A DNA stretch of 64,000 nucleotides from Methanobacteriota archaeon (GCA_020697715.1 JAEHCO010000003.1:184020-248019); one strand, 5' to 3'; shown: positions 1-57,806, counted from the first letter of the stretch. The notes: generated by a model from the letters alone, not told the origin. Made by a program: numbers and translations.

Positions 1-63
1 TTTGGAATATATCCTGCAGCGGTGCTTAACATGGTGACAGCCTTTTCAGGAGGGATAATATGA
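1..63 (+). CDS. nuoM: 3' end of a complex I-like membrane subunit, probably NuoM/FpoM (partial)
   Basis: Frame 1 reads FGIYPAAVLNMVTAFSGGII*, the G(I/L)YP C-terminal motif of antiporter-like subunits; its stop overlaps the nuoN ATG (ATGA). Confidence 0.65.
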   Translation, partial: FGIYPAAVLNMVTAFSGGII

Positions 64-1526
64 ATTATCTGATACTTCTACCACAGATCATACTCGTGGC
101 AATAGCCATGTTGATACCAGCCATTGACCTTTACTTCAAGGACAAGACACGCATATTGCCATATCTGGCCGCCGGAGCCTTGGGAGTTTCCCTGTTAATA
201 TTGTCTATATTCACAGGCATCATCCCATTGGAGATATTCGATGTCACCATACCCACATCTTTGTTCGGTGGAATGCTGGTCGTCGATAGGTTCGCACTAT
301 TCCTTCAATTATTGTTCGGAATGGTCACCTTCTTCGTGGTCATGGCATCGTCATCCTACATCAAGCAATACGATCGCAACCAGGGTGAATATTACTCCCT
401 ACTTCTGATAGCGACCGTTGGTATGATGACCGTGGCAATGGCCAATGATCTGATAACTTTGTTCATCGGTCTCGAAGTTGCCAGTATATCATCCTATGCG
501 CTTACTGGTTTCAGAAAGAACAGTAAGAAGAGTGCGGAAGCCGCGATGAAATACTTCATAATCGGGGCTCTTTCCTCATCTATCGTTCTGTATGGTATAT
601 CCTTGTTCTACGGATTGACTGGCACAACGGACCTTGCCCAGTTTGGAACCCAATTGCAGAATATCGATCCAAGTCAGGATGGCCTGTTAGCGATGGCCAC
701 GATATTCCTTATAGCGGGATTCAGCTTCAAGGTGGCCGCCGCCCCATTCCATATGTGGGCTCCTGATGTTTACCAGGGCGCGCCAACGACAATAACCACC
801 TTCCTGGCCGCAGCGTCGAAGAAGATGGGATTTGCCGCTCTGTTCAAGGTCTTCCTTTTCGGTCTGATAGCTTTCAAGGCGGATTGGGCCATTGCCTTCG
901 GTGTCATGGCAGCACTTACCATGACAGTTGGTAATCTCGCGGCATTGAAGCAAGAGGACCTGAAGAGGATGCTCGCATACTCCAGCATTGCACAAGCCGG
1001 TTACATAATGATGGCTCTGGCAATTGCGACCCAGTACGCTCTGGGAGGTGCATTGTTCCACATACTCACACACGCCTTCATGAAGACTGGCGCTTTCATA
1101 ATCGTGGCAATGTTATCCGTCATGCTCATTGGCTCCAAGGTTGGAGACCTTCGCGGTCTGAGGATCAAATCACCAATTACAGCTTTCTGTATGGCGATAA
1201 TGATGTTGTCCTTGGCCGGAATTCCGCCTCTGGCAGGTTTCGCTTCCAAGTTCGTGCTGTTCTCAAGCGCGATAGATGCAGGCGGCTGGCTCATATGGTT
1301 GGCTGTAGTTGCTGTGATAAACAGCGCGATCTCCCTGTACTACTATGCGAGAGTTCTGAAGGAGATGTACGTTCTGCCAACTGATCATATACCGATCAGG
1401 ATGAAGGAACCACTGGCGATGCTGATACCTGTCGTATTGACAACAGCAGCTGTGATCATCGTCGGTCTGTATCCAGAGCCCTTCATAGATGCGGCAATGG
1501 ACGCGGCAAGAGCTTTGATCCCATGA
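60..1526 (+). CDS. nuoN: NADH:quinone oxidoreductase / Fpo-like subunit N
   Basis: Highly hydrophobic; motifs EAAMKYF, FKVAAAPFHMWAPDVYQGAP, KRMLAYSSI, SLAGIPPLAGF. Confidence 0.95.
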   Translation: MNYLILLPQIILVAIAMLIPAIDLYFKDKTRILPYLAAGALGVSLLILSIFTGIIPLEIFDVTIPTSLFGGMLVVDRFALFLQLLFGMVTFFVVMASSSYIKQYDRNQGEYYSLLLIATVGMMTVAMANDLITLFIGLEVASISSYALTGFRKNSKKSAEAAMKYFIIGALSSSIVLYGISLFYGLTGTTDLAQFGTQLQNIDPSQDGLLAMATIFLIAGFSFKVAAAPFHMWAPDVYQGAPTTITTFLAAASKKMGFAALFKVFLFGLIAFKADWAIAFGVMAALTMTVGNLAALKQEDLKRMLAYSSIAQAGYIMMALAIATQYALGGALFHILTHAFMKTGAFIIVAMLSVMLIGSKVGDLRGLRIKSPITAFCMAIMMLSLAGIPPLAGFASKFVLFSSAIDAGGWLIWLAVVAVINSAISLYYYARVLKEMYVLPTDHIPIRMKEPLAMLIPVVLTTAAVIIVGLYPEPFIDAAMDAARALIP

Positions 1527-1600
1527 TGATGAAATCTTTTGATTTCATAGTGATGGAATACCTGATACCATAGGCAAGGTGAAGTAGGAAAGCAGAGAAA

Positions 1601-1643
1601 GGGGCATGGTTGAACATGCCCCACTTTTCCCTTTTTAGTTTTT
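1601..1643 (+). terminator. Hairpin plus T-rich tract after nuoN
   Basis: GGGGCATG-gttgaa-CATGCCCC 8-bp stem followed by cttttcccttttt. Confidence 0.55.
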
Positions 1644-1826: not shown

Positions 1827-1969
1827 ACTAAGTTTCTTTACCGCCCTTTATAGCTATACAATATATATTATACATAAGAGTGAAAAGAATAATATATCGT
1901 ATATGGCCCAAGTTTGGAATCGCTATACATACCGAATGTCAAATTTGGGATACGGGAGGCACGAAATCG

Positions 1970-2524
1970 ATGACAGTTACTGATAAGAACAATGTCAAAA
2001 GTGATGAGATCATTACCGCGGATCAGCTCGATCTAAATTTCAAGTACGAGGTGGCCGAGGAAATAGGTGGCGAAGGAATTTTACAATGTTTTCAATGCGG
2101 CACCTGCACGGCCACATGTCCAGTTCGTAAATTCGATCCAGACTTCAATGTGAGAAGGGTCATCAGATTAACTCTGCTCGGAGCCAAAGAGAAGGTCCTT
2201 ACCAGTGACTTTGTCTGGATGTGTTCCACCTGTTATTCGTGTTACGAGTTGTGTCCTCAAAATGTCAAGATAACCGATGTCATGACAGCTCTGAAGAACC
2301 TGGCCGTGAAGAATGGCCATGCTCATCCGAATGTCAAGGTCCATATTCCGATCTTGGAAGAATTTGGTCATCTCGGGGAGATAACCGAGTTCGAGAACAC
2401 TATCAGGGAAAAGCACGGTCTCCATGAGATAGTCCAGAGCCCTGATAAGGTCAAACTTATTTTTGAAAAGCGCAAGTTGAAGCTCTTCATGGAAGGCAAG
2501 CTTAAAGACGAAGGAGGCGAGTGA
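1970..2524 (+). CDS. hdrC: Heterodisulfide reductase subunit C (2x[4Fe-4S])
   Basis: CFQCGTCTATCP and WMCSTCYSCYELCP; ATG 1970 follows GGGAGG, preferred over the ORF-track GTG 1880. Confidence 0.92.
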   Translation: MTVTDKNNVKSDEIITADQLDLNFKYEVAEEIGGEGILQCFQCGTCTATCPVRKFDPDFNVRRVIRLTLLGAKEKVLTSDFVWMCSTCYSCYELCPQNVKITDVMTALKNLAVKNGHAHPNVKVHIPILEEFGHLGEITEFENTIREKHGLHEIVQSPDKVKLIFEKRKLKLFMEGKLKDEGGE

Positions 2525-3403
2525 ATGGATTACTTACTATACACTGGATGTACTGTTCCTTTGAGGGCTGTTGGTTACGAGATAGCGGCCATCAAGGTCG
2601 CGAAAGAACTGGGTGTCAATTTACTGCCAATGGAAGAATTCACGTGCTGTGGCTACCCGATAACCTTCCTTGATAATGACAGTTCCATGGCTCTGGCAGT
2701 TTTGAATATCTGCCTTGCGGAGGAGAAGGGATTGAACATCGCGACATTATGCAATTCATGCACCGGTAATTTAACTAAAGCAAATTACCGAATGAAGACT
2801 GAAGAGAAATTCAGGAACAGGATCAATGAACTTCTCAGCCCAACTGGTCACCAATGGAAAGGAACTATCGAGATCAAACATTTCGCTCGTATCCTTTACG
2901 AGGATGTCGGAGAGGAAAAGATGAAGGCCAGGGTTACGAAAAGCTTGGCTGGCAGTAATATCGCTCCCATGTATGGCTGCCATTATCTGAAACCCTCCAA
3001 GATCTACGATGGCTTTGATCATCCAGATCATCCAGAATCCATGGAGACATTGATCCGATCTACCGGGGCAAAGCCAGTTCAATATGTTGAGAAGACCCTT
3101 TGTTGCGGAGGCCCAATATTGGCACTTGGAGAAGAGATGCCTATGAACATGTCCCAGCGCATACTGGACGGTATGAAGAGGGAGAAGGCGGACGTGGCTG
3201 TTGTCGTGTGTCCCTTCTGCAATGTGATGATGGGCGAGTACCAATCCACCATCGGCGATAAGGCCGGGACAGAGTATGGTATACCCACTTTCTACATGCC
3301 TCAGATAATCGGCCTGGCCTTCGGTTTCACACCAAAGGAACTTGGCCTGAAGAAGAAACAGGTCAAGAAAGCATTTGGCGATATCTTACAGGAGGATGAG
3401 TAG
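2525..3403 (+). CDS. hdrB: Heterodisulfide reductase subunit B (two CCG domains)
   Basis: YTGC...TCCG...CNSC and YGCH...CCGG...CPFC; lies between hdrC and hdrA. Confidence 0.93.
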   Translation: MDYLLYTGCTVPLRAVGYEIAAIKVAKELGVNLLPMEEFTCCGYPITFLDNDSSMALAVLNICLAEEKGLNIATLCNSCTGNLTKANYRMKTEEKFRNRINELLSPTGHQWKGTIEIKHFARILYEDVGEEKMKARVTKSLAGSNIAPMYGCHYLKPSKIYDGFDHPDHPESMETLIRSTGAKPVQYVEKTLCCGGPILALGEEMPMNMSQRILDGMKREKADVAVVVCPFCNVMMGEYQSTIGDKAGTEYGIPTFYMPQIIGLAFGFTPKELGLKKKQVKKAFGDILQEDE

Positions 3404-3404
3404 T

Positions 3405-6400
3405 ATGACGGCTGACAAGAAAGGAGTGATGGTCATCGGAGGAGGTATTGGAGGTATCCAGTCCGCTCTTGACCTGGCAGATTCTGGAGTGAATGTCTAT
3501 CTGGTCGAGAAAGGCCCATCGGTCGGTGGCCGAATGGCCCAGTTGGACAAGACCTTCCCGACAAATGATTGTTCCATGTGTATCCTGTCCCCAAAATTAG
3601 TAGCCGCGGCCAGACACCCGATGATCAACCTGCTGACAATGTCACAGGTCAAGACATTGGAGGGAGAACCAGGAAACTTCAAGGCCACTATCACCACCCA
3701 TCCAAGATACATCGATATTAGCAAATGTGTTGGCTGTGGAGAGTGTGCGAAGGTGTGCCCCATCGAAATGCCAAATGAGTTCGATGTTGGAACCGCCACG
3801 AGGGGAGCGACATACATACCGTTCCCACAGGCCACCCCACTCAAATATTCAATTACAAGACACGGCACGCCACCTTGTGAGGCCGAGTGTCCAGCTGGAG
3901 TTCATGTTCAGGGTTATGTCGCACTTATTGCCAAGGGCAAGTACATGGAAGCTCTGGACCTTCACAGGGAGTTCAATCCACTACCGATAATCTGCGGCAG
4001 GGTTTGTCCACATACCTGTGAGAGCGTGTGCAACCGTGCGGAAGTGGATGAGCCGATCGCTATCGCTCATCTCAAGAGATTCATGGCAGCTTATGAGATG
4101 GATAATAGGGATGAGCCAGTAGAACCATTCGACCAGACCGATGGTAAGACCGTGGCCATAATTGGTTCCGGACCCGCTGGATTGACAGCCGCTTATTACC
4201 TGGCCAGACACGGCCACAAACCAACCATCTACGAAGCACTGCCAGTTGCTGGCGGTATGCTGAGAGTGGGCATCCCTGAATACAGATTACCCCGTGATCT
4301 ACTCCAGGCCGAGATAGACTATATCAAGGCCAAGGGAGTGGACATCCAGCTTAATAAGAGACTTGGAACTGACATAATGCTGGATGATCTGAAGAAGGAT
4401 TTCGATGCAGTGTTCCTGGCCATAGGCTCTCATGTCTCAAAATCCATGAGAGTGACAGCTGAAGACACTCCAGGCGTCATACCTGGTGTGGATTTCCTGC
4501 GTGATGTCAACCTGGGCAAGGAAGTGCAACTTGGAAACAAGGTCGCCGTCGTTGGTGGCGGAGATGTCGCTATCGATGCTGTAAGGGTCGCTCACCGTCT
4601 GGGAAAAGAAGCCTTCATGATCTACAGAAGGACAAGGAACGAGATGCCAGCTCATGAAACTGAGATCATCGATACCGAGGAAGAAGGTATCGATATCAAA
4701 TTCCTCACACAGCCAGTCCGCGTCGTCGAGACAGGCGGGAAGGTATCTGGTATCGAGTGCGTCCGCATGGAACTGGGAGAGCCAGATGACAGTGGGAGGC
4801 GCAGGCCAGTTCCGGTCGAAGGTTCTGAATTCATAATAGAAGTTGATAATATCATACCAGCTATTGGCCAGGATTCAGATGTTGAATATCTGAAGAAGGC
4901 CGGTATCAGTACGACGGACTGGAAGACCATCGTCGCTTGTGAGGAAACTTACATGACCAGTGATGAAGGCGTATTTGCCGCTGGAGATGCAGTATCTGGC
5001 CCATGGACAGTTGTCGGTGCGGTTGGCGGAGCGAAGAAAGCCGCCGATGCTATCAATTCCTATCTATTGGGCGAGGATTTCCCAATGGAATGCAAGCTTC
5101 AAGACGTGATAACATTTGAAGATCTGATGCTGGAGAAGAAATTGGAAACAGCTCCAAGAGCATGTGTTGACACTCTGGATGTCGAGCAGAGGGAATGCAA
5201 TTTCAAGGAAGTTGTCGGCCAGCTCACAGAAGCACAGGCAGTTGCCGAGGCAGAGCGTTGCTTAGCCTGTGGTGGTTGTTCAGGTTGCTGGCAGTGTATC
5301 GGGGCTTGTGAGGCAGATGCTATAGATTTCTCACAAGAGGAATACGAGACCGAGGTCGACATAGGCTCGGTCGTCGTCGCCACTGGCTTCGATCTTATAG
5401 ACGCGGGCTTCAGGCCGGAGTACAATTACGAGAACTTTGACAATGTCATAACAGGTATCGAATTTGAAAGATACCTGAGTGCGTCCGGACCTACCAGCGG
5501 TCATCTTATCAGACCAAAGGATCATAAATCTCCCAAGAAGATCGCCTTCATCCAGTGTGTGGGATCCAGGGATGAGCATTATGGGTGCGCGTACTGTTCC
5601 AGAGTGTGCTGTATGTACGCGATCAAGGAAGCCATGCTGATCCGGGGTCATGACAAGGATGTTGAAGATATCACAATCTTCTTCATGGACATAAGGGCCT
5701 TTGGAAAAGGATTTGAGCAATATTATGAGCGTGCGAAGGATGAGAACATAAACTTCTCAAGGTCCAGACCATCTCATTTCATAGAGGATCCAGAGACTGG
5801 AGATGTATTGATCCAGACCGAGGACACGGAAACTGGCGAGATCAGTGAATATCGAGCTGACCTCGTGATCCTATCATCGGCCATGGTGCCATCAAAGGGA
5901 ACTGACGAACTGGCTGAGAAGCTGGGTGTGGAACTTAATGAGTCCGGTTTCTTCAAGGAAGGCGAGACCGACAATATCCCACTCGAAACGACCAGGCCGG
6001 GAATATATTCCTGCGGCTGCTCGTCCGGACCTAAGGATATTCCGGATACCGTATCTCAAGCATCTGGAGCTGCCGCTAAGGCAGGCGAATGGGTGAAGGA
6101 TTACAGGTCAGCTCCTGAGAAGAAGGACATCACACCAGTTGATCCATACGGCAAGCCCAGGATAGGTGTGTTCATCTGTCACTGTGGTCTGAATATCGGA
6201 GGTACTATCGATGTGGTAGATGTTGCTAAATTCGCAAAAGAACTTCCATATGTCGAGTACACGGATGCCAATGTTTACACTTGCTCGGAGAACACACAGG
6301 GCGAGATCCAGGATCTCATACACAGTGAGAAGCTGAACAGAGTGGTTATCGCTTCTTGCAGTCCTCGAACTCACGAACCGATCTTCAGGCAGATGTGTGC

Positions 6401-7850
6401 TGAGGCAGGCCTGAATCCATATCTTTTCGAGATGGTGAACATACGTGATCAGGGTTCATGGGTTCATTTGAATGAGCCCGAAGCAGCGACCGAGAAGGCC
6501 AAGAGTCTGGTCGCGGCCGCGGTTGCCAAGTCCAGATTCCTGAAGCCATTGGTGGCTAGTGAACTGGAAGTCAATCATGACGCGCTCGTCATCGGTGGCG
6601 GAGTATCCGGTCTCACAGCAGCCACAAGCCTGGCATCTTTGGGATTCAAAGTGAATCTTGTGGAAAAGTCAGATGTTCTCGGTGGCGCATTGCTGGATAA
6701 AGACCTACTGATACCATCCAATGTCAAGGCAAGTGACATGCTGGCCGACCTGATAAAGAAGGCCGGGGACAAAGGAGTGAAGTTCTTCAAAGAGACCGAG
6801 CTCATTGACCTTGAAGGCTTTGTTGGAAACTTCAAGGTCAAAGCCATGCAGAAGGGAACTGAGGAACTTGACTTCGAGGTTGGAGCAATCATTCTGGCCA
6901 TAGGTGCGAAACTCTATGAGCCCACAAAGGGCGAGTTCGGTTTCGGATTGCATCCGAACGTCATCACTAACCAGGATCTGGAAGATCTGATGATGGAGCA
7001 TCAGGGTGACAAACTCATGCTCAATGGAAAGGAGCTGAAGCGTGTTGCAATGATCCATTGTGTTGGCTCTCGTGACAAGGAAGGCTTCAAGGACTGTTCC
7101 AGATACTGCTGTCAAGTCACCCTCAAGCAGATAGACGAATTGAGGGCTCTGGGCATCGATACCGTGGATTATAACAGGGACATACGTGCCTTCAGCAAGG
7201 GAGCGGAGGAATTGTACAGGAAGACCAGAGAGGATGGTACAATGTACATGCGCTACACTCCTGAAGAACTTCCGGAGATCATCCCAGATGGTGATGGTGT
7301 GAAGATAAGGACCTACGATGCCCTTGTTGGAGCGACTGTCGAATTGCCATTTGACGCTGTTGTTCTATCAGTGGGAATGAGAGCTCATGAGATAGATGTT
7401 AAACATTTGAGAAGCCTGATGAAAGTTCCAATGGGCGCGGATGGCTTCTTCTTAGAAAGCCACCCGAAGCTGGGACCTGTTGAGACCAATACCGCCGGTA
7501 TCTATCTTTGTGGAACCGCACAGTTCCCCAAGGACGTGGTCGATACCATCGCTCAGTCATATGGAGCCGCCGCTAAGGCAGCCACAGTCCTGTCCAAGGA
7601 CAAGCTCCTGGGTGTTGCCCAGATATCCAGTGTCGATCCTGAACTATGCATAGGTTGTGAGACCTGTATCGATATCTGTCCTTACAATGCCATCGAGAAG
7701 GAGAATGGCAAGGCCAAGGTATTGGAGGCCGTTTGTAAGGGTTGCGGATCATGCGCGGCCGCTTGCAGGAACGGTGCGATACAGCAGGCTGGTTTCAGAG
7801 ATGAATACATTGTTACTATGATAGACAATGCTCTTGAGGAGGTGGAATGA
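3405..7850 (+). CDS. hdrA: Large HdrA/HdrL-like flavoprotein: HdrA with an inserted GltD/NfnB-like NAD(P)H domain plus a second HdrA module
   Basis: GGGIGG...LDKTFPTNDCSMCI, GRVCPHTCESVCNR, GSGPAG, GGGDVAID, IYRR, QCVGSRD..CSRVCC, second RIGVFICHCG...HCVGSRD..CSRYCC, C-terminal ferredoxin; ATG 3405 after GGAGG. Confidence 0.92.
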   Translation: MTADKKGVMVIGGGIGGIQSALDLADSGVNVYLVEKGPSVGGRMAQLDKTFPTNDCSMCILSPKLVAAARHPMINLLTMSQVKTLEGEPGNFKATITTHPRYIDISKCVGCGECAKVCPIEMPNEFDVGTATRGATYIPFPQATPLKYSITRHGTPPCEAECPAGVHVQGYVALIAKGKYMEALDLHREFNPLPIICGRVCPHTCESVCNRAEVDEPIAIAHLKRFMAAYEMDNRDEPVEPFDQTDGKTVAIIGSGPAGLTAAYYLARHGHKPTIYEALPVAGGMLRVGIPEYRLPRDLLQAEIDYIKAKGVDIQLNKRLGTDIMLDDLKKDFDAVFLAIGSHVSKSMRVTAEDTPGVIPGVDFLRDVNLGKEVQLGNKVAVVGGGDVAIDAVRVAHRLGKEAFMIYRRTRNEMPAHETEIIDTEEEGIDIKFLTQPVRVVETGGKVSGIECVRMELGEPDDSGRRRPVPVEGSEFIIEVDNIIPAIGQDSDVEYLKKAGISTTDWKTIVACEETYMTSDEGVFAAGDAVSGPWTVVGAVGGAKKAADAINSYLLGEDFPMECKLQDVITFEDLMLEKKLETAPRACVDTLDVEQRECNFKEVVGQLTEAQAVAEAERCLACGGCSGCWQCIGACEADAIDFSQEEYETEVDIGSVVVATGFDLIDAGFRPEYNYENFDNVITGIEFERYLSASGPTSGHLIRPKDHKSPKKIAFIQCVGSRDEHYGCAYCSRVCCMYAIKEAMLIRGHDKDVEDITIFFMDIRAFGKGFEQYYERAKDENINFSRSRPSHFIEDPETGDVLIQTEDTETGEISEYRADLVILSSAMVPSKGTDELAEKLGVELNESGFFKEGETDNIPLETTRPGIYSCGCSSGPKDIPDTVSQASGAAAKAGEWVKDYRSAPEKKDITPVDPYGKPRIGVFICHCGLNIGGTIDVVDVAKFAKELPYVEYTDANVYTCSENTQGEIQDLIHSEKLNRVVIASCSPRTHEPIFRQMCAEAGLNPYLFEMVNIRDQGSWVHLNEPEAATEKAKSLVAAAVAKSRFLKPLVASELEVNHDALVIGGGVSGLTAATSLASLGFKVNLVEKSDVLGGALLDKDLLIPSNVKASDMLADLIKKAGDKGVKFFKETELIDLEGFVGNFKVKAMQKGTEELDFEVGAIILAIGAKLYEPTKGEFGFGLHPNVITNQDLEDLMMEHQGDKLMLNGKELKRVAMIHCVGSRDKEGFKDCSRYCCQVTLKQIDELRALGIDTVDYNRDIRAFSKGAEELYRKTREDGTMYMRYTPEELPEIIPDGDGVKIRTYDALVGATVELPFDAVVLSVGMRAHEIDVKHLRSLMKVPMGADGFFLESHPKLGPVETNTAGIYLCGTAQFPKDVVDTIAQSYGAAAKAATVLSKDKLLGVAQISSVDPELCIGCETCIDICPYNAIEKENGKAKVLEAVCKGCGSCAAACRNGAIQQAGFRDEYIVTMIDNALEEVE

Positions 7851-7910
7851 ATGAGTTCATTTACATTCACCATTCATTTCGACACCTCCAAAATTATGGA
7901 GGTGCAGTAG

Positions 7911-16615: not shown

Positions 16616-16671
16616 CTCTAATTCCTCCTCCTGATCTCGGAATTCAGAATGCAATCACTTTGTTCTCGCAT

Positions 16672-36948: not shown

Positions 36949-37012
36949 TGCCCCCTCATTCGATCATCACAATAGATAAAGGTAAATATTTCAGTTGTAT
37001 AATCAGGGCTGC

Positions 37013-39620: not shown

Positions 39621-39659
39621 ATATCTTTTATATCGATGAAGGTCAATGGAAGAAATAAC

Positions 39660-40505: not shown

Positions 40506-40532
40506 TTGGTAAATGTTTAATAATTGAAAATT

Positions 40533-51767: not shown

Positions 51768-51937
51768 GCTTTGGTTGGTTAAACTATATATTTATTATAG
51801 TTATGTTAAACAGTGTATGTAACCTATTTAATATAATAGTTACGGGCTTATTTTCAATAAGCCAGATTATGCGCCATAATACACAACCGAAAGGCATATA
51901 AAAGTCAGTGATATGTCCTCTTATTGGAGAAAGTCTC

Positions 51938-52369
51938 ATGCAAATTGAAGAGTACACATTTCCGGATGACCTGTATTTCCACAAGGAACACTACTGGGCA
52001 AGAGTAGAAGGCGACGTTGTAGTTATTGGCGTTAGCGATTTCGCTCAGAAGCTGGCAGGAACAATTAAAAGAGTGGTCACACTGGAAGAAGACGATGAGA
52101 TCGTCCGCGACAAGCCAATTGGTACATTGTCTAGCGGGAAATGGACAGGAAAATTATACGCACCTATCAGTGGTGAGATAGTTGAGGTAAATGAGGATAT
52201 CGAGGATGAGCCAAATCTCATCAATGAGGATCCTTATGGAGAAGGCTGGGTCATAAAAGTGGAACCTAGTGACCTCGATGCAGACCTCGCCACCCTCAAG
52301 AAGCCAGGCCCAGAGTTCGAGGCCTGGATGAAGAAAGAGATCGAAGAAAAGAAAGCTTTGGTAAAGTAA
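51938..52369 (+). CDS. gcvH: Second GcvH-like lipoyl carrier (LbpA-like SGKW motif)
   Basis: YFHKEHYW, IGVSDFAQKLAG, TLSSGKWTGKLYAPISGEIVEVN, INEDPYGEGW; ATG 51938. Confidence 0.9.
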   Translation: MQIEEYTFPDDLYFHKEHYWARVEGDVVVIGVSDFAQKLAGTIKRVVTLEEDDEIVRDKPIGTLSSGKWTGKLYAPISGEIVEVNEDIEDEPNLINEDPYGEGWVIKVEPSDLDADLATLKKPGPEFEAWMKKEIEEKKALVK

Positions 52370-52667: not shown

Positions 52668-53750
52668 CTACTTCTTAAAAATGGGCTTGCAGTTGACAGC
52701 CCGATTCATTCTGTCTGGTCCCAATAATCTCATCGACATCTCCAGGGTCCAGTTCCTCTTGAAGGCCTTGTCCGCCATCCTCTTTGTATCCAGAGCATTA
52801 TCCAGCTCTGGGCCGACATTCATCCTCCACTCTTCCTCGTATTTTTGGAGTGGTGTGTTGTCCTTGAAATTCTGAGCTATGACATTTCCAGCTATCCTGC
52901 CGCATATCATGGATATCGGTATACCGCCTCCATTTGTCGCCATCACTTGTCCAGCCGCATCCCCGACTATCATTACATTATCTTTGACAGTTTGCGGGAT
53001 GGGCCCTGATATTGGAACAAATCCCGCACTCAATTGCTCGATCTTTCCCAGGCCTCGGACCTTTAGGAATTTATCCAACATATTCCTCAATGACACATTC
53101 CCTGTCTTCTGAATGCCAAGGCCGACATTCGCCCCGTCGCCCTTTGGGATCACCCAGGCATAGCCGCCAGGTGCGATCGTGCCGAAGAACATCTCCACAA
53201 TAGGCTCGAAATCCCCGGATACCTGTCCGAGCATGCAGGGGCACAGGACATGCTCGACCTGCATTCCTGCGGATTCTGCAACTTTGGATTTGAAACCATC
53301 GGCTCCGACAATGACCTTCGCTTTTATGCTTCCTTTATCGGTCTCGACCATGTTTCCATCTAAGGACAGGAATTTTGTCCCTGTCCTTAGGTCGGCTCCC
53401 GCATCTGTCGCCTTGCTGGCCAGATGTTTGTCGAAGTATCTTCTATCTACTGTGAATCCTTCAAAATCAATGTCATATTTCCGGTTCTTAGGTGATACGA
53501 ACCGGATCTTCTCCGTCTTCATCTTGATAAGCCCGTCATCGATATTGAAAAGCTCTGATTGATCCTTCACCCTGGGTATGATCCTTTTCATCTCATTGGT
53601 GGATGGTATGAACTCCCCGCATTGAACTGGCTCACCAACTGCTTTTCTCTGATCGATGATAATTACATTTAAGCCAGATCTGGCTGCATAATATGCTGTT
53701 GAACTTCCTGCAGGCCCGGCTCCGATAACTGCGACATCGAATTCTTCCAT
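52668..53750 (-). CDS. Geranylgeranyl reductase family protein (DGGGPL reductase-like)
   Basis: IGAGPAG, GEPVQCGE, APGGYAWVIPKG, VGDAAGQV..NGGGI. Confidence 0.9.
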   Translation of the reverse strand: MEEFDVAVIGAGPAGSSTAYYAARSGLNVIIIDQRKAVGEPVQCGEFIPSTNEMKRIIPRVKDQSELFNIDDGLIKMKTEKIRFVSPKNRKYDIDFEGFTVDRRYFDKHLASKATDAGADLRTGTKFLSLDGNMVETDKGSIKAKVIVGADGFKSKVAESAGMQVEHVLCPCMLGQVSGDFEPIVEMFFGTIAPGGYAWVIPKGDGANVGLGIQKTGNVSLRNMLDKFLKVRGLGKIEQLSAGFVPISGPIPQTVKDNVMIVGDAAGQVMATNGGGIPISMICGRIAGNVIAQNFKDNTPLQKYEEEWRMNVGPELDNALDTKRMADKAFKRNWTLEMSMRLLGPDRMNRAVNCKPIFKK

Positions 53751-53789
53751 TTTGGATCACTCTGTTCTTGTTTACAATTTTCACGATCA

Positions 53790-54761
53790 TCAATGATTTC
53801 TGTCCACTGCGAAATCGGACAGTGCCAGTAGCTTGTCCCATTCTTCAGTTCTGGTATTTATCTGCTCCAATGCGTCGCTCGCCTTGTTCCCGTAAACCAT
53901 GGAGAGATCATGGGCATAATCAATAGAGCCAACATCCTTCATGATCCTGATGGCCTCCATGATATCATCATTGGAATTCTCATTATTTGTTATGACCTTC
54001 TTCATATGGTCATTGTCCGAACCTTTGGAATTATTAAGTGCATGAATTGAAAGGATGGTCATCTTTCCCTCGTTCAGATCATTCCCTATGACCTTCCCGG
54101 TATTGCTCTTCGAGCCTACCACATCGAGGATATCATCCATTATCTGGAAACCGATCCCCATATTGAGCCCGTAATCGCTCAATAGCTCATTGTCCTTCTC
54201 TGAAGCACCAGCCATTAACCCTCCGGCTTTCGAGCTGGCTGAGATGGGCCCAGCGGTCTTCTGCTCGATGATATTGAGATAATCCTGCTCTGAAAGCAGA
54301 ACATTCTGAATGTTCTGCGATTGTATGATCTCACCAATGGCCTGTGATATACAAGCTCCCGTGATGACGTCCCTTATTTCTTTATTATATTCGCTGAGCA
54401 GTTCGAAGGCCTTGACAAAAAGATAATCCCCAGTTAGAAGAGCCGCGCTGGTCCCGAATTTGATATGGGCTGTTGGTATGCCTCTTCTCACTACGCTTCT
54501 GTCATTGATATCATCATGTATCAATGTCCCAGTGTGTATGAGCTCCATGGATGCTGCTAATGGAACCGCGCTTTTGATATCCGTGCCGTTCAGGGCCTTG
54601 TAGGCGGACAGCATGACCGCTGGTCTGATCCTCTTGCCACCTGAGTCTATCACATGGTGGGATACCTTCTCGATAATGGCAATACCACAGTTGATATTGT
54701 CGTTAATGATATCATCTACGAGTTTCATTTCCTCGGATGAGTATAACTCAACGTCCATCAT
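53790..54761 (-). CDS. trans-polyprenyl diphosphate synthase (likely long-chain)
   Basis: GGKRIRP, HTGTLIHDDIND..RRG, KT, FQIMDDILD. Confidence 0.9.
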   Translation of the reverse strand: MMDVELYSSEEMKLVDDIINDNINCGIAIIEKVSHHVIDSGGKRIRPAVMLSAYKALNGTDIKSAVPLAASMELIHTGTLIHDDINDRSVVRRGIPTAHIKFGTSAALLTGDYLFVKAFELLSEYNKEIRDVITGACISQAIGEIIQSQNIQNVLLSEQDYLNIIEQKTAGPISASSKAGGLMAGASEKDNELLSDYGLNMGIGFQIMDDILDVVGSKSNTGKVIGNDLNEGKMTILSIHALNNSKGSDNDHMKKVITNNENSNDDIMEAIRIMKDVGSIDYAHDLSMVYGNKASDALEQINTRTEEWDKLLALSDFAVDRNH

Positions 54762-55175: not shown

Positions 55176-56264
55176 CTACCTGTCAGTTTCACCAATGCAA
55201 ACATCGATACTTCCCATTATCGAGGGAACATCCGCTATCCTATTTCCGATCAGTATGGTTGGTGAGGCAGATATATTAATGAAGGCCGGACTTTTGATAT
55301 CCACTCTGTACGGCTTATCTGTTCCATTACCTATCATGTGTATGGATGAGTCACCTCTTGGATCTGCTGTCCTGGTGAATACCTCAGAGCCTTTTGGAGC
55401 CTTCTTTGGAACATTCTGAGCCATTATCGGGCCAGCAGGCATATCCTTCAGAGCCTGCTTGATTATGCTCATGCTCTCCCTCATCTCGTTCATTCTAACG
55501 CGATATCTGGAATAGCAATCGCCCCTTTTCTCGACACAGATGGCGAAATCAAGTTTATCATAAACGAGATATGGATCATGCCTTCTCAGATCATATGGAA
55601 CTCCACTGGCACGTAGATTGGGGCCAGTGACTCCCAGATCAATGGCGTCATCGGGTCTCAATATACCGACATCCATCGTCCTCATGAGGATCATGTCATT
55701 GTCATCCATCATGCCCTCGTATTCTTGTAATTTCTGCTCAAGAACAGCTATCTGCTTGAGTGTCTCTTCCTCGAATCTGTCTGGGGTGTCATTCCTCACC
55801 CCACCGATCCTGGTGTAATCGTACATGAGCCTTCCGCCAGATATCATCTGCATGAGATCCATGAACAGCTCTCTTTCTCTCATCGGATAAAGGAACATTG
55901 TCAATATCCCAAGGTCGGCGGCATATGCAGCCAGCCATAGAAGGTGATTGATGATCCTCTGTATCTCCAATGTGATAACCCTGATATATTGCGCCCTCTC
56001 CGGAGCCACAACACCCATGAGGTCCTCTACTGTGAAAACATAAAGCGAGCTCCAGGAATGTGCTGAACCATAGCAAAGCCTGTCTGCCAGAGGTATGCTC
56101 TGGGGAAAGGTACGATTCTCCATGATCTTCTCGATCCCACGGTGGAGGTATCCCACTTCAGGAATTGCATCTGTTATGGTCTCACCATCGATCTTGACCT
56201 TCAATGTCCATAATCCATGGGTCATCGGATGTTGCGGACCCATGTTCACCCACATCTCCGCCAT
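55176..56264 (-). CDS. nuoD: Complex I-like subunit D (NuoD/FpoD)
   Basis: NMGPQHPMTHG, GYLHRGIEK, DRLCY, GPNLRASGV, DVCIGETDR; no NiFe CxxC pairs. Confidence 0.93.
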   Translation of the reverse strand: MAEMWVNMGPQHPMTHGLWTLKVKIDGETITDAIPEVGYLHRGIEKIMENRTFPQSIPLADRLCYGSAHSWSSLYVFTVEDLMGVVAPERAQYIRVITLEIQRIINHLLWLAAYAADLGILTMFLYPMRERELFMDLMQMISGGRLMYDYTRIGGVRNDTPDRFEEETLKQIAVLEQKLQEYEGMMDDNDMILMRTMDVGILRPDDAIDLGVTGPNLRASGVPYDLRRHDPYLVYDKLDFAICVEKRGDCYSRYRVRMNEMRESMSIIKQALKDMPAGPIMAQNVPKKAPKGSEVFTRTADPRGDSSIHMIGNGTDKPYRVDIKSPAFINISASPTILIGNRIADVPSIMGSIDVCIGETDR

Positions 56265-56845
56265 TATTGAACCCTCCTGCATTCCTCTTGCCATTTTTTG
56301 GGTTTATCATTTAATTTGTAAGTCTTCCTCAATGGGAAGAAATCCGCATCGTCCCTCAGCATTATCCTTCTGAGGTCTGGATGGTTCTCGAAATTGATTC
56401 CGAACATATCGTATATTTCCCTCTCGTACCAGTTCGCCGCGCGCCATACCCCACAGACCGTGTGGATACTGGGCTCGTCTTTCGGTAGGGAAACTGTGAA
56501 TACAAGAACTGGTGAATGGCTGAGTGAAAAGAGCATGTAGGTGACATCGAAGCCAGTTCTTCTGTCGACACCTGAGATGAAGCTCACGCCTTTGTAATCC
56601 ATATCGTTCTTCAAAATATTGCAGGTCTCGATCAATTTTTCAGCTGGAACTTTGAACTCGATCCTTCTGGGAAGTGTGATCTTCATATCTTCAATATCTG
56701 GGAATTTGCCTTTCAGCATCTGAAGAACTTCCTGCTCTCCAGTCATTCCAGTTTGCAGATTATGTTTGAGCGTATCGGTCTCGAATAGTTCTGGCTTATG
56801 ATGGTCTCGCTGGCCTTGCTCAATTGCCTCTGTTCGCTCACTCAT
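56264..56845 (-). CDS. nuoC: Complex I-like subunit C (NuoC/FpoC)
   Basis: ANWYEREIYDMFGINFENHPDLRRI, FPLRK. Confidence 0.92.
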   Translation of the reverse strand: MSERTEAIEQGQRDHHKPELFETDTLKHNLQTGMTGEQEVLQMLKGKFPDIEDMKITLPRRIEFKVPAEKLIETCNILKNDMDYKGVSFISGVDRRTGFDVTYMLFSLSHSPVLVFTVSLPKDEPSIHTVCGVWRAANWYEREIYDMFGINFENHPDLRRIMLRDDADFFPLRKTYKLNDKPKKWQEECRRVQ

Positions 56846-57429
56846 TTCTCCACCTCCGCATCAAGATTGAACATGCCCTGCTTATTATCCCTGATCATCT
56901 CTTGGAACTTGAAAAGGCCATCGAAGAAGGCCTCGGGCCTCGGTGGGCATCCTGCAATGTAAATGTCAACTTTCATTATCTTGTCAACGCCCTCAATGAT
57001 ATTGTACGACTCCCAGAAAGGACCGCCACTTATGGAACACTCGCCCATGGCCATTACCCATTTTGGCTCTGGCATTTGCTCATAAAGAGTGACGAGCTTC
57101 TTCGCCAACTTATAGCTGACTGGCCCATTCACAATGAGCATATCACATTGTCTGGGACTTGATCTTGGAAGAACACCGAACCTTTCCATATCGAACCTTG
57201 GCCCGAAGGTCGCCATCGGACTCTCCAATGCACAACATGCGATACCGAAATGAAGAGGATATATGGAATTTCTCTGTGCCCAATTAAAGAAGTCGGTCGT
57301 GACATAGTTCACAGCCTTATCGATCTTGGTATTCTTGAGAAATCTTCTTGTGATATCATCGAACCAGTCCAGAAAATCTTCGGAGTTCAGCATAGCGACA
57401 GTCGCGTCGCCGGTCTCGTCTAGATCCAA
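56842..57429 (-). CDS. nuoB: Complex I-like subunit B (NuoB/FpoB)
   Basis: ACCALE, RSSPRQCD, YEQMPEPKWVMAMGECSISGG, GCPPRPE. Confidence 0.94.
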   Translation of the reverse strand: MDLDETGDATVAMLNSEDFLDWFDDITRRFLKNTKIDKAVNYVTTDFFNWAQRNSIYPLHFGIACCALESPMATFGPRFDMERFGVLPRSSPRQCDMLIVNGPVSYKLAKKLVTLYEQMPEPKWVMAMGECSISGGPFWESYNIIEGVDKIMKVDIYIAGCPPRPEAFFDGLFKFQEMIRDNKQGMFNLDAEVEK

Positions 57430-57806
57430 ATCTTTGCCTCCTTTTTAAGTGCATACATAAGTCCAAGTGACAGGATGCCGATGAAAATAAGAATGGATAT
57501 CGAGCTCTTGAGGTCCATGGCCTGGAATACGACCGCCCAGATCATCAGGAATACCACCACGATGTCGAATACGACAAAGATGATGGCGAACATGTAATAC
57601 TGGAAATGGAACTGTATCTTCGCCTCTCCTACTGGTATCGATCCACATTCATAAGTTGTATCCTTGATCTTTGTTAGTTTTGTTGGTCTGAAATATCTGT
57701 TCAGGAAGAACACTGCGGCTGGGAATATCAGGCCTACTATCGCGAACACGAACACTGGGAAGTAATCTTCTGACAGCATAGGAATCGAAAGTAGATATCC
57801 ATTCAT
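57420..57806 (-). CDS. nuoA: Complex I-like subunit A (NuoA/FpoA)
   Basis: TYECGS.P.G, FQYYMFAIIFVVFD; three TMs. Confidence 0.92.
   Translation of the reverse strand: MNGYLLSIPMLSEDYFPVFVFAIVGLIFPAAVFFLNRYFRPTKLTKIKDTTYECGSIPVGEAKIQFHFQYYMFAIIFVVFDIVVVFLMIWAVVFQAMDLKSSISILIFIGILSLGLMYALKKEAKIWI

What the first reader, a model, noticed from the sequence alone, without database searches (positions are those of the whole stretch)
1..57806. A candidate cytoplasm-to-exterior electron-transfer chain in one ~54-kb archaeal block
Seen: Hdr-Flx, GlcD/HdrD-like oxidoreductases, menaquinone-related genes, two quinol-side cytochrome b/c pairs, a Ccm system, surface monohemes, a small secreted tetraheme and a ~35-heme giant, all between the two halves of a complex I-like operon. 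No mcr, dsr or nitrate reductase gene is in view. Inference: a Geobacter-style extracellular electron transfer (metal/humic reduction or interspecies transfer) system in an archaeon that may belong to Thermoplasmatota, a group not usually associated with large multiheme inventories.
Basis: partly seen in the sequence, partly recalled or inferred. Interest (0 to 1): 0.85.

Follow-up and report, generated by a model that had tools for sequence, protein, structure and literature searches.

The report
Archaeal cytochrome electron-export gene block
An uncultured Thermoplasmata archaeon keeps all its multi-heme cytochromes, their assembly machinery and a relative of a known archaeal "cytochrome nanowire" protein in one conserved gene block, which most likely lets it pass respiratory electrons to something outside the cell.

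Summary
The block is real. It is collinear at 71-99% protein identity in an independent same-genus genome, so it is not a chimera. It contains all four ORFs of the 94%-complete genome that have four or more CxxCH motifs.

Corrections:
- The giant cytochrome has 30 heme motifs, not about 35.
- The radical-SAM genes read as "menaquinone-related" are a second LipS1/LipS2-LplA-GcvH lipoate-assembly cluster.
- The second cytochrome b is a divergent FdnI-type protein that Pfam misses.

New findings:
- The small tetraheme is a full-length homolog of AvECN, the Archaeoglobus veneficus extracellular cytochrome nanowire (PDB 8E5G; E 7e-14, profile E 2.6e-23).
- It is followed by its own signal peptidase and a TPR membrane protein. 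This trio recurs in another class of the phylum and in metagenome loci.

No McrA, molybdopterin oxidoreductase, heme-copper or bd oxidase, siroheme reductase, fumarate reductase or ACS was found in the genome. Relatives are labelled Thermoplasmata. I found no paper describing such a system there.

Function is inferred from genes only. An earlier scan noted AvECN-type clusters in Methanoperedens.

The parts
60..1526 (+). nuoN, last gene of the nuoH-N half of a complex I-like operon (the rest lies upstream of the window)
   Evidence: TIGR01770 NuoN 411 bits, above cut-off. NuoH, I, J, K, L, M and M' lie in the 8 kb upstream.
1880..11360 (+). Hdr-Flx-like cytoplasmic module: HdrC, HdrB, a GltD-HdrA fusion (1491 aa), MvhD/FlxD, a Fe-S protein, a HydB/AsrA-like Fe-S protein and a HydG/AsrB-like FAD/NAD protein
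   Evidence: Pfam and NCBIfam. A paralogous second copy lies on contig C30.
11929..14659 (-). ccmE, ccmC, ccmB, ccmA (archaeal System I cytochrome c maturation)
   Evidence: Pfam. CcmE C-terminus is CPSKY.
14699..15403 (-). FdnI/HydC-type cytochrome b (4 TM), partner of the 8-heme protein
   Evidence: PF01292 E 1.3e-10. Four hydrophobic helices.
15404..16654 (-). 8-heme c-type cytochrome with N- and C-terminal membrane helices
   Evidence: 8 CxxCH. Cytochrome_C7/c3_2 hits. TM helices at 29-47 and 352-370.
16672..17499 (-). Surface monoheme with a CARDB domain and a C-terminal helix
   Evidence: 1 CxxCH. CARDB. Partial diheme_GEGP hit.
17585..19123 (-). GlcD-type FAD 2-hydroxyacid (D-lactate/glycolate) dehydrogenase; its start overlaps the stop of the cyt b gene upstream
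   Evidence: FAD_binding_4 plus FAD-oxidase_C. Adjacency to the cyt b gene is conserved in L002, L003, L008 and G003.
19120..19893 (-). Divergent FdnI-type cytochrome b with no Pfam hit of its own
   Evidence: BLASTP E 2e-5 against the cyt b at 14699-15403. H65 and H163 are invariant in 10 sequences. 17 of 18 sampled profile hits carry PF01292.
19906..21255 (-). Membrane-anchored cytochrome with 11 CxxCH, 2 CxxxCH and 1 CxxxxCH and an NrfH-like N-terminus
   Evidence: TIGR03153 NrfH E 6.5e-12 over residues 45-137, below cut-off.
21432..23132 (+). Unknown surface protein: signal peptide, about 340-aa ectodomain, TM helix and acidic coiled-coil tail. Paralog of the protein at 42527-43990.
   Evidence: Homologs lie next to ccmF in G003, L003, G048 and G023.
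23254..25377 (+). ccmF heme lyase
   Evidence: PF01578 plus PF16327.
25486..26784 (+). HdrD/GlcF/TfrB-like protein with two 4Fe-4S clusters and two CCG domains
   Evidence: CCG E 1.4e-31. Paired with GlcD in G048 and G023.
26781..33033 (.). Second lipoate-assembly cluster: LplA, GcvH-like (K69), LipS2, LplA-DUF116, GGR/LipT-like (- strand), LipS1
   Evidence: NCBIfam: LipS1 232.9 bits (cut-off 230); LipS2 226.5 bits (cut-off 270). Other copies on C22, C32 and C29.
36250..36948 (+). UbiE/MenG quinone C-methyltransferase
   Evidence: TIGR01934 191 bits, above cut-off.
36995..37660 (+). Surface monoheme with a C-terminal helix
   Evidence: 1 CxxCH. A homolog is in the G200 cluster.
37657..38748 (+). 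PKD/Ig-domain surface protein
   Evidence: PF22352.
38915..39547 (+). AvECN-type tetraheme, candidate subunit of an extracellular cytochrome filament
   Evidence: PDB 8e5g_A at E 7.3e-14 over query 6-193. Profile search E 2.6e-23, next hit 0.012. Four CxxCH and four distal His are invariant in 22 sequences.
39618..40505 (+). Archaeal signal peptidase I with extra TM helices, linked to the tetraheme gene
   Evidence: TIGR02228 66.7 bits, above cut-off 51.85. SDSMRPS, GDLLL, IHRV and GDATN motifs are visible. Downstream of tetraheme homologs in 18 of 80 metagenome loci and in G200.
40524..42530 (+). Membrane protein with TPR, zinc ribbon and 4 TM helices, third gene of the tetraheme module
   Evidence: The TM half is conserved in G200 (41%) and in 8 of 22 metagenome loci with at least 2.5 kb of downstream flank.
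42527..43990 (+). Paralog of the surface protein at 21432-23132
43995..51767 (-). Giant 2590-aa cytochrome: TM anchor, AvECN-like head (6 hemes), about 830-aa heme-free repeat stalk, and a 24-heme CxxxxCH/CxxCH tail
   Evidence: TIGR01904 102 bits. The head matches the tetraheme at E 6.6e-9. The stalk repeat folds as a beta-sandwich.
51908..52369 (+). Second GcvH-like lipoyl carrier (K78)
   Evidence: PF01597 E 3.6e-35.
52668..54761 (-). Geranylgeranyl reductase-family protein and polyprenyl (GGPP-type) synthase
55176..57806 (-). nuoD, nuoC, nuoB, nuoA: the other half of the complex I-like operon, convergent with nuoH-N
   Evidence: Pfam. No second copy in the genome.

Best explanation
The block encodes an outward respiratory chain of the archaeal multiheme type. 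Steps 1 to 5 are inferred. Gene content, homology, predicted topology and conservation are shown.

1. **Input to the quinone pool.** Reducing equivalents from a heterotrophic metabolism enter the membrane through a complex I-like enzyme that has no NuoEFG genes beside it. A GlcD/HdrD-type 2-hydroxyacid dehydrogenase may feed in as well. The quinone pool is menaquinone-like (a MenA-like gene elsewhere, UbiE/MenG in the block).
2. **Quinol oxidation.** Two modules, each an FdnI-type cytochrome b plus a membrane-anchored multiheme cytochrome (8 hemes; 11-14 hemes with an NrfH-like start), oxidise the quinol. They pass electrons to hemes on the outer face of the single membrane.
3. **Surface carriers.** From there electrons move to surface-anchored monohemes, to the giant cytochrome and to an AvECN-type tetraheme.
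4. **Tetraheme processing and assembly.** The tetraheme is processed by its own signal peptidase and probably polymerises into an extracellular cytochrome filament. The giant begins with the same AvECN-like module, so it may dock or nucleate that filament at the cell surface.
5. **Acceptor.** The acceptor is an extracellular solid, humic substance or partner cell.

The Ccm genes in the block make all of these cytochromes.
For: **Gene content and topology**
- All four multiheme ORFs of the genome, plus CcmABCEF, sit in this block.
- Every cytochrome has an N-terminal hydrophobic helix, so the hemes are predicted to lie outside the membrane.
- Both cytochrome b genes belong to the FdnI/HydC family.
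- 4 of the 18 sampled relatives are cytochrome b fused to a multiheme domain, which shows the pairing is functional elsewhere.

**The tetraheme and its module**
- The tetraheme matches AvECN (PDB 8E5G) at E 7.3e-14 and, as a profile, at E 2.6e-23. The next PDB hit is at 0.012.
- The identity of 8E5G comes from the figure legend in PMC12954529 and from PMC11176372.
- Its 4 CxxCH and 4 further His are invariant in 22 sequences.
- The order tetraheme, signal peptidase, TPR membrane protein recurs in G200, which is in another class.
- In metagenome loci the signal peptidase follows the tetraheme in 18 of 80 loci. It does so in 12 of the 36 loci with at least 1.5 kb downstream. The TPR protein is present in 8 of the 22 loci with at least 2.5 kb downstream.

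**Absence of alternative outlets**
The genome is 93.8% complete with 0.56% contamination. In it I found:
- no McrA;
- no molybdopterin oxidoreductase;
- no COX1;
- no cytochrome bd;
- no NIR_SIR;
- no SdhA/FrdA C-terminal domain;
- no ACS.

**Quinone**
- A MenA-like prenyltransferase exists elsewhere in the genome.

**Conservation**
- The whole block is collinear in G003 with intact frames.
Against: - There is no expression, protein or physiological data. No RNA run was listed.
- A route to the naphthoquinone head group was not found. MqnA/D are absent, the classical men genes were not searched, and the MenA-like hit is below the curated cut-offs.
- The giant's heme chain is interrupted by about 830 heme-free residues. 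It cannot be a continuous wire on its own.
- The AlphaFold model of the tetraheme was unusable (pLDDT 49.8), so filament-forming ability rests on sequence homology alone.
- A 2026 paper states that the physiological role of the archaeal ECN filaments themselves is unresolved (PMC13748539, passage).
- The genome is about 6% incomplete. A missing terminal reductase cannot be excluded.
Confidence: 0.6

Rival explanations
1. The same hardware works inward. The cytochromes take electrons from Fe(II), a cathode-like mineral or a syntrophic partner and feed them to the quinone pool and the Hdr-Flx modules.
For: Multiheme conduits are reversible in principle. The AvECN homolog MmcX of a Methanocellales archaeon was interpreted as an electron-uptake device (PMC11176372, abstract and passages). 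Two Hdr-Flx clusters could use low-potential electrons.
Against: No ACS/CODH-type carbon fixation marker was found, and no terminal reductase was found that could consume imported electrons. The contig carries histidine-degradation genes upstream (hutU, hutH), which fits a heterotroph needing an electron sink.
Confidence: 0.12
2. The cytochromes reduce soluble or colloidal compounds at the cell surface (for example sulfur or polysulfide, nitrite or hydroxylamine, selenite, or soluble quinones) rather than performing long-range transfer. The tetraheme is a soluble or membrane-bound shuttle, not a filament.
For: The 8-heme protein has weak local similarity to NrfA (E 7e-5 over about 58 residues). 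AvECN-family membership does not prove polymerisation. Only 12 of the 36 tetraheme loci with enough flank carry the peptidase, so the family may be functionally mixed.
Against: No CxxCK catalytic motif occurs in any of the cytochromes. The 8-heme protein is membrane-anchored at both ends and paired with a cytochrome b, like quinol oxidases. The full-length, ligand-conserving match is to a protein solved as a filament. A 24-heme surface tail is hard to explain for a soluble substrate.
Confidence: 0.15
3. The block is an assembly or binning artefact, or a recently acquired and decaying island that does not function in this host.
For: Distribution is patchy. The 11-heme gene occurs in 8 of 61 relatives. 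GC of the giant gene is 0.52 against about 0.45 elsewhere.
Against: An independent same-genus genome has the same order from nuoN to nuoA at 71-99% identity with no stops. The block sits 184 kb into a 248-kb contig, between housekeeping genes. No tRNA and no integrase or transposase family was seen in the window. Contamination is 0.56%.
Confidence: 0.03

Closest known systems
AvECN, the extracellular cytochrome nanowire of Archaeoglobus veneficus (PDB 8E5G; Baquero et al. 2023, Cell; paper not held, cited through PMC12954529 and PMC11176372)
   Same: Tetraheme of about 200 residues. Full-length sequence match (E 7.3e-14; profile E 2.6e-23). A conserved N-terminal hydrophobic stretch is followed by the motif S-L-F-x-x-Q-H-x-W. 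All four CxxCH and four further His align.
   Different: About 30% identity at most. Found in a Thermoplasmata host. Followed by a dedicated signal peptidase and a TPR membrane protein. Its module is also fused to the start of a 2590-aa cytochrome. Polymerisation is untested.
Multiheme EET clusters of 'Ca. Methanoperedens'/ANME-2 (ECN^Mv, giant cytochromes; PMC13748539 passages, PMC10542353 listing only)
   Same: A single-membrane archaeon with Ccm, an AvECN homolog named on similar evidence (29% identity, E 3e-12), very large surface cytochromes, and b-type cytochrome plus multiheme membrane modules.
   Different: The host has no mcr and no nitrate reductase. No OmcZ-type subunit was recognised. 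The donor side is complex I plus GlcD/HdrD rather than reverse methanogenesis.
Geobacter inner-membrane quinol oxidases CbcL, CbcBA and ImcH (recalled; CbcBA is named in a reference list seen)
   Same: An FdnI/HydC-type cytochrome b combined with a multiheme c domain, and an NrfH/NapC-like multiheme anchor. Database relatives of the second cyt b include b plus multiheme fusions (4 of 18 sampled).
   Different: Here b and c are separate genes. There is no periplasm, porin or outer-membrane conduit. I could not compare sequences directly with the Geobacter proteins.
Fe(III)-respiring Archaeoglobales (Ferroglobus, Geoglobus); Kletzin et al. 2015, PMC4429474
   Same: Archaeal System I Ccm without CcmH. 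Very large multihemes (up to 33 CxxCH in F. placidus). Respiration assumed to run through surface cytochromes.
   Different: A different phylum. In 2015 only two cytochrome c proteins from one single-cell Thermoplasmatales genome were known.
Geobacter-type CxxxxCH/CxxCH domain cytochromes (TIGR01904 / PF09698)
   Same: The giant's tail carries 6 such paired units (102 bits). Distant relatives at 24-30% identity are labelled Geobacter, Desulfuromonas and Nitrospirae.
   Different: The closest relatives (34-87%) are all labelled Thermoplasmata or unnamed. The AvECN-like head and beta-sandwich stalk are added.
FlxABCD-HdrABC of Desulfovibrio (recalled)
   Same: HdrA, B and C with an MvhD-like protein, two Fe-S proteins and an FAD/NAD protein in one operon.
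   Different: Gene order is reversed. HdrA is fused to a GltD-like NAD(P)H domain. The disulfide substrate is unknown. All matches are below the equivalog cut-offs.

Membership tests
AvECN-type extracellular cytochrome nanowire subunit | Four CxxCH heme sites in a protein of about 200-260 aa | tested here: met
   CxxCH at residues 41, 69, 101 and 170 of 210 aa.
AvECN-type extracellular cytochrome nanowire subunit | Full-length sequence homology to the solved subunit (8E5G) | tested here: met
   E 7.3e-14, query 6-193 against chain 7-209. Profile E 2.6e-23, next hit 0.012.
AvECN-type extracellular cytochrome nanowire subunit | Distal histidine ligands for bis-His hemes conserved | tested here: inconclusive
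   H31, H57, H94 and H144 are invariant in 22 sequences, and three of them align to His of 8e5g. I could not check which residues ligate heme in the structure.
AvECN-type extracellular cytochrome nanowire subunit | Assembles into an extracellular filament | not testable with these tools
   The AF2 model is unusable (pLDDT 49.8).
Archaeal variant System I (Ccm) | CcmA, B, C, E and F present | tested here: met
   Pfam and NCBIfam.
Archaeal variant System I (Ccm) | CcmE with CxxxY instead of HxxxY | tested here: met
   The C-terminus is ...IGCPSKY. The motif is defined in PMC9084895.
Archaeal variant System I (Ccm) | No CcmH | not tested
   None of the 50 window proteins hit a CcmH family. The rest of the genome was not searched.
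Cytochrome b plus multiheme quinol oxidoreductase (Cbc-type) | FdnI/HydC-type di-heme cytochrome b next to, or fused with, a multiheme c | tested here: met
   PF01292 for 14699-15403. For 19120-19893. In the second b only one His pair (H65/H163) is invariant, and the TM1 His is Asn in this genus.
Cytochrome b plus multiheme quinol oxidoreductase (Cbc-type) | Oxidises menaquinol | not testable with these tools
   Inference only.
NrfH/NapC/CymA quinol dehydrogenases | N-terminal TM helix followed by the family's tetraheme fold above the model cut-off | tested here: inconclusive
   TIGR03153 E 6.5e-12 over residues 45-137, but 45.7 bits against a cut-off of 134.2. The first motif is CxxxCH.
Geobacter/Shewanella porin-cytochrome conduit | Outer-membrane beta-barrel (MtrB/PccP-type) with periplasmic and outer cytochromes | tested here: not met
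   No porin family is among the Pfam hits of the 50 window proteins. The host is an archaeon.
Flx-Hdr | HdrABC plus MvhD-like, Fe-S and FAD/NAD subunits in one operon | tested here: met
   All are below the equivalog cut-offs, so this is membership at family level only.
LipS1/LipS2 lipoyl synthase pathway | Both radical-SAM halves with a lipoate ligase and a lipoyl carrier | tested here: met
   LipS1 232.9 bits (cut-off 230). LipS2 226.5 bits (cut-off 270, best hit). Two LplA. GcvH-like proteins keep the lipoyl lysine.

The most novel reading that the evidence does not exclude
A non-methanogenic Thermoplasmata lineage lives by extracellular respiration with three features not yet described together:
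- An AvECN-type cytochrome filament whose subunit is matured by a dedicated signal peptidase and TPR membrane-protein pair. The filament is nucleated on the AvECN-like head of a giant membrane-anchored cytochrome.
- A GlcD/HdrD 2-hydroxyacid dehydrogenase wired through its own divergent cytochrome b directly to an 11-14-heme surface cytochrome.
- A private LipS1/LipS2-LplA-GcvH lipoate system that supplies a protein-bound dithiol carrier to the Hdr-type CCG enzymes of the same block.
Probability: 0.15. Interest if true: 0.85.

Novelty: new variant of a known kind. Interest (0 to 1): 0.62.

Why it matters
Thermoplasmatota are among the commonest archaea of anoxic sediments and are usually read as fermenters. 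The 2018 Thermoprofundales study does not mention cytochromes at all.

A lineage of this phylum with a complete, conserved cytochrome export chain and no other respiratory outlet would add a phylum to the organisms that can respire minerals, humics or partners.

The recurrent trio of tetraheme, signal peptidase and TPR membrane protein gives concrete, testable candidates for how archaeal cytochrome filaments are processed and assembled. The reviews I read call that an open question.

Tried and rejected
**Runs that gave nothing usable**
- RNA evidence: no RNA holder was listed for window 36995-46994.
- Complex prediction for the second cytochrome b with the HdrD-like protein returned no answer (score 0.00 in both runs). 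It says nothing either way.
- The AlphaFold2 model of the tetraheme had pLDDT 49.8, so no fold search was made on it.
- The ESM Atlas search with the giant's heme-free region was uninformative. The best score was 0.90 to unnamed viral clusters, and recognition was low.
- Pfam at E up to 1 gave nothing credible for the giant's stalk, the two unknown surface paralogs or the 117-aa ORF.
- The fold search with one stalk repeat (pLDDT 74.3) had no match at E 0.001 or better. The best hits were carbohydrate-binding-module-like beta-sandwiches at E about 1e-2 and TM about 0.5-0.6. I call it only a beta-sandwich.
- PDB sequence searches found nothing for the 24-heme tail. The best hit for the 11-heme protein was E 0.048.
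- C-terminal sorting signals of the two monohemes gave only insignificant hits (PGF-CTERM E 0.087, Heimdall-CTERM E 0.22). I do not claim a sorting signal.
- No 16S rRNA gene is in the assembly.

**Idea rejected**
- I considered that complex I was acquired together with the cytochromes. NuoD and NuoH hits in four same-order genomes that gave no hit to the 11-heme cytochrome are only 32-39% identical. But NuoD has 47-61% matches in 177 of 401 genomes of the phylum, many of which gave no hit to the giant or the tetraheme.

**Literature**
- Baquero et al. 2023 was not held. Supplements were not opened.

Full report
**What is there**

The window is the last 64 kb of a 248-kb contig of a 2.12-Mb genome in 34 contigs. 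The genome is 93.8% complete with 0.56% contamination. I took the 50 long non-overlapping ORFs through Pfam, and 41 of them through NCBIfam.

On the + strand the window starts with nuoN (60-1526). The 20 kb upstream hold nuoH, an extended nuoI, nuoJ, nuoK, nuoL and two nuoM-like genes on the same strand. nuoD-C-B-A lie at 55176-57806 on the - strand. No second copy of nuoA-D exists in the genome.

Between the halves lie these genes:
- An Hdr-Flx-like operon at 1880-11360, made of HdrC, HdrB, a 1491-aa GltD-HdrA fusion, MvhD, two Fe-S proteins and an FAD/NAD protein.
- A long - strand gene string running from 21255 down to 11516. In order it holds a cytochrome with 11 CxxCH (plus 2 CxxxCH and 1 CxxxxCH), a membrane protein, GlcD, a monoheme with a CARDB domain, an 8-CxxCH cytochrome, cytochrome b561, ccmA, ccmB, ccmC, ccmE and a small two-helix ORF.
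- On the + strand, an unknown surface protein, ccmF and an HdrD-like CCG protein.
- A lipoate cluster.
- UbiE/MenG.
- A second + strand string: monoheme, PKD protein, tetraheme, signal peptidase I, TPR/zinc-ribbon membrane protein and a paralog of the unknown surface protein.
- The 2590-aa giant on the - strand, followed by a second GcvH-like gene, a geranylgeranyl-reductase-family gene and a polyprenyl synthase.

**Heme counts and chance**

A motif count gives these numbers:

| Protein | CxxCH | CxxxCH | CxxxxCH |
|---|---|---|---|
| 15404-16654 | 8 | 0 | 0 |
| 19906-21255 | 11 | 2 | 1 |
| 38915-39547 (tetraheme) | 4 | 0 | 0 |
| 43995-51767 (giant) | 22 | 2 | 6 |
| Each monoheme | 1 | 0 | 0 |

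The giant therefore has 30 motifs, not about 35. Genome-wide, the four ORFs with at least 4 CxxCH are exactly these four. The next class is five short ORFs with 2 motifs each. This is far beyond chance.

Each cytochrome has an N-terminal hydrophobic helix. The 8-heme protein and both monohemes also have a C-terminal one. The predicted location is therefore outside the membrane, anchored to it.

**Corrections to the observation**

1. The radical-SAM genes are not menaquinone genes. 32056-33033 scores 232.9 bits on NCBIfam LipS1 (cut-off 230). 28244-29287 has LipS2 as its best hit (226.5 bits, cut-off 270). They sit with two LplA-type ligases, a GGR/LipT-like flavoprotein and a GcvH-like protein. 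Both GcvH-like proteins keep the lipoyl lysine position. The genome has further copies of LplA and LipS2 (C22), LipS1 (C32) and GcvH (C29). This is therefore an extra, block-specific lipoate system.
2. The membrane protein at 19120-19893 has no Pfam hit, but it is a cytochrome b.
   - It aligns with the b561 of 14699-15403 at E 2e-5.
   - H65 and H163 are invariant in 10 homologs.
   - A profile search of 1.84 billion representatives finds only 119 relatives at E 1e-3 or better.
   - Of the 18 relatives I sampled out of those 119, 17 carry PF01292. Four of these are fusions of a multiheme domain with the b domain.
   
   So 'two cytochrome b/c pairs' is right.
3. CcmE ends in CPSKY. This is the CxxxY form that archaea use (PMC9084895, passages).

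**Is the contig sound, and who is the host?**

A same-genus genome (G003) carries the whole stretch from nuoN to nuoA in the same order and orientation. Most proteins are 71-99% identical, but the paralog at 42527-43990 is only 49% identical. No frames are interrupted. G003 lacks only an 859-aa FG-GAP gene, the 117-aa ORF, and the Memo plus two beta-propeller genes beyond nuoA. That excludes a chimera.

The nearest records are titled 'Thermoplasmata archaeon' or, for the closest, 'Methanobacteriota archaeon'. Named relatives of the tetraheme, the giant and the second cytochrome b are all 'Thermoplasmata' or 'Thermoplasmatales archaeon'. Earlier notes on other windows of this genome say the same. 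I did not run a marker-gene phylogeny. No 16S gene is in the assembly.

**Rest of the genome**

Family searches found none of the following. The control genomes gave hits in every one of these searches.

| Family |
|---|
| McrA |
| Molybdopterin oxidoreductase |
| Heme-copper oxidase |
| Cytochrome bd |
| Siroheme sulfite/nitrite reductase |
| SdhA/FrdA C-terminal domain |
| ACS |

MqnA/D are absent. A MenA-like prenyltransferase is present, with all top hits MenA but below the cut-offs. A NuoF-like domain exists only inside a 1050-aa ORF on another contig. hutU and hutH lie upstream on the same contig.

The picture is a heterotroph whose only recognisable respiratory outlet is the cytochrome set. 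About 6% of the genome is missing, so this is not proof.

**The tetraheme is an AvECN homolog**

phmmer against PDB sequences gives 8e5g_A at E 7.3e-14 over nearly the full length. A profile of 22 homologs gives E 2.6e-23, with the next hit at 0.012. 8E5G is the Archaeoglobus veneficus extracellular cytochrome nanowire (figure legend of PMC12954529; PMC11176372). Others have named an ECN homolog in Methanoperedens on comparable evidence (29% identity, E 3e-12; PMC13748539).

In the 22-sequence alignment the four CxxCH, four further His (31, 57, 94, 144), Q30 and the C-terminal Pro are invariant.

The giant begins with the same module. Its residues after the membrane helix read ...TVSLFSSQHDW..., against TVSLFSTQHDW in the tetraheme. 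The two match at E 6.6e-9.

**A conserved tetraheme module**

G200 is in a different class of the phylum and has a 3.58-Mb single contig. In that genome one 40-kb stretch holds:
- HdrA/MvhD/HdrD-like genes;
- a small 4-heme protein with a homolog of the second cyt b;
- a 1538-aa homolog of the giant, with an AvECN-like head and a CxxxxCH/CxxCH tail;
- on the other strand, a TPR membrane protein (41%), signal peptidase (38%), tetraheme (36%), monoheme (31%) and an 8-heme protein;
- a 13-CxxCH homolog of the 11-heme protein with its cytochrome b.

A scan of metagenome contigs found 280 relatives of the tetraheme, of which the best 80 were kept. Counts:
- A homolog of the signal peptidase lies downstream on the same strand in 18 of the 80 loci.
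- Among the 36 loci with at least 1.5 kb of downstream flank, 12 have it and 24 do not.
- The TPR protein follows in 8 of the 22 loci with at least 2.5 kb downstream.

The peptidase passes the archaeal signal peptidase I model (66.7 bits, cut-off 51.85). It shows the SxSMxP, GD, HR and GDxxN boxes that I recall as the Ser/His type.

So a sub-lineage of AvECN-like genes travels with its own peptidase and membrane helper. I tested it only on my own loci.

**The second conserved module**

The gene order 11-heme cytochrome, cytochrome b, GlcD is kept in all three same-genus genomes and in G016 of another family. In G048 and G023, of a third family, the cytochrome and cytochrome b are kept, and the GlcD and HdrD-like genes lie 1-7 kb away. 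The unknown surface protein next to ccmF recurs in G003, L003, G048 and G023. In G048 and G023 LipT-LipS1 lies beside these genes, and in G023 a GcvH-like gene does too.

GlcD's start overlaps the stop of the cytochrome b gene. I read this as a cytoplasmic 2-hydroxyacid dehydrogenase (GlcD with its CCG/Fe-S partner) that hands electrons to the membrane b/c module. Whether it binds the b subunit directly is open.

**Anatomy of the giant**

Six hemes lie in residues 89-346. No motif lies between 347 and 1175. Twenty-four motifs lie in 1176-2534, six of them in CxxxxCH/CxxCH units (TIGR01904, 102 bits).

The heme-free part holds four repeats of about 105 aa. One repeat folds as a seven-strand beta-sandwich (pLDDT 74.3) with only weak CBM-like matches.

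Relatives of the tail at 34-87% identity are Thermoplasmata-labelled or unnamed. At 24-30% identity they include Geobacter, Desulfuromonas and Nitrospirae proteins of the same domain family.

A heme-free stalk cannot conduct. The head and tail must therefore be bridged by other cytochromes, or the stalk serves as a surface-layer or spacer element. This is a weak point of any simple 'wire' model.

**Distribution**

| Query | Genomes with a hit |
|---|---|
| 11-heme gene | 8 of 61 relatives (3 of 3 same-genus, 1 of 13 in family f4, 2 of 3 in f6, one weak hit in f17) |
| CcmF homolog | 161 of 401, even sample of the phylum, window's genome included |
| Giant, heme-rich part | 2 of 401 (own and G200); six more genomes match only the stalk domain |
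| Tetraheme | 3 of 401 (own, G200, G145) |
| NuoD of this type | 177 of 401 |

Cytochrome c maturation is thus common in parts of the phylum, and so is the complex I type. The large multihemes and the AvECN module are rare and patchy. I did not separate loss from transfer.

**Literature**

Five searches found no paper that describes a multiheme EET system in this group:
- Thermoplasmat* with multiheme/EET;
- Thermoplasmata with multiheme and iron reduction;
- a broad five-term search;
- Thermoplasmatota with EET and cytochrome;
- SG8-52.

The passages I read in PMC12482716, PMC10386581 and PMC13594681 mention the phylum only in community lists, or for flavin-type genes. PMC10415592 infers an ancient MtrA transfer 'from Thermoplasmata', so homologs were noticed in trees. 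PMC4429474 (2015) knew only two cytochrome c proteins from one single-cell Thermoplasmatales genome. PMC6461988 on Thermoprofundales has no occurrence of 'cytochrome' or 'heme'. Subscription papers and all supplements were outside my reach and could hold such a description.

**Verdict**

An outward electron-export chain is the best reading (about 0.6). Its anatomy is archaeal (AvECN type), not Geobacter-like, and every functional step is inferred.

I class it as a new variant of a known kind. The component families are known. What I did not find in print:
- the host phylum;
- the pairing of the b/c module with GlcD/HdrD;
- the tetraheme, peptidase and TPR trio;
- the AvECN-headed giant;
- the private lipoate system.

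Noticed in passing
window 26781-33033 and 51908-52369; G048 (L017) and G023 (L020): An extra LipS1/LipS2-LplA-GcvH lipoate-assembly set sits inside the respiratory block although the genome has other copies on C22, C32 and C29. LipT-LipS1 also lies beside the 11-heme/cyt b and HdrD-GlcD genes in G048 and G023, with a GcvH-like gene in G023. This suggests a protein-bound lipoate carrier serving the CCG (Hdr-type) enzymes.
   Followed up: partly
window 21432-23132 and 42527-43990: Two paralogs of an unnamed protein family: signal peptide, about 340-aa ectodomain, one TM helix and a very acidic coiled-coil cytoplasmic tail. Homologs lie next to ccmF in G003, L003, G048 and G023. Pfam is blank. 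They could be a cytochrome-maturation or surface-anchoring helper.
   Followed up: partly
window 3375-7850: HdrA is fused to a complete GltD/NfnB-like NAD(P)H-binding module (1491 aa). A second, unfused-looking Hdr-Flx cluster lies on contig C30 at 15037-28388.
   Followed up: no
window 19120-19893 (alignment A2): The TM1 histidine kept by more distant homologs of this cytochrome b (HW motif) is asparagine in this genome, in G003 and in the next three relatives aligned (NW), while H65/H163 stay invariant. The protein may bind one heme instead of two.
   Followed up: no
L012 13580-14341 and 15138-20000, plus window 60-1526: The complex I-like operon has a 253-aa NuoI with two extra 4Fe-4S motifs and four antiporter-like subunits (L, M, M', N). 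No NuoEFG genes lie beside it.
   Followed up: no
window 33107-35686 and 57858-62414: An 859-aa FG-GAP repeat surface protein, and a Memo plus two beta-propeller gene group, are present here but missing at the same places in the same-genus genome G003. These are recent insertions or deletions at the block's edges.
   Followed up: no
G000 C11:111001-111585: An 837-aa ORF elsewhere in the genome shares a domain at 62-65% identity with residues 533-725 of the giant's heme-free stalk. The same domain is the only part of the giant matched in six other genomes of the phylum sample.
   Followed up: no
phylum sample: Many NuoD matches in families f47 and f29 are reported with one in-frame TGA inside the match. 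This may be only the NuoC/NuoD gene junction, but it was not examined.
   Followed up: no
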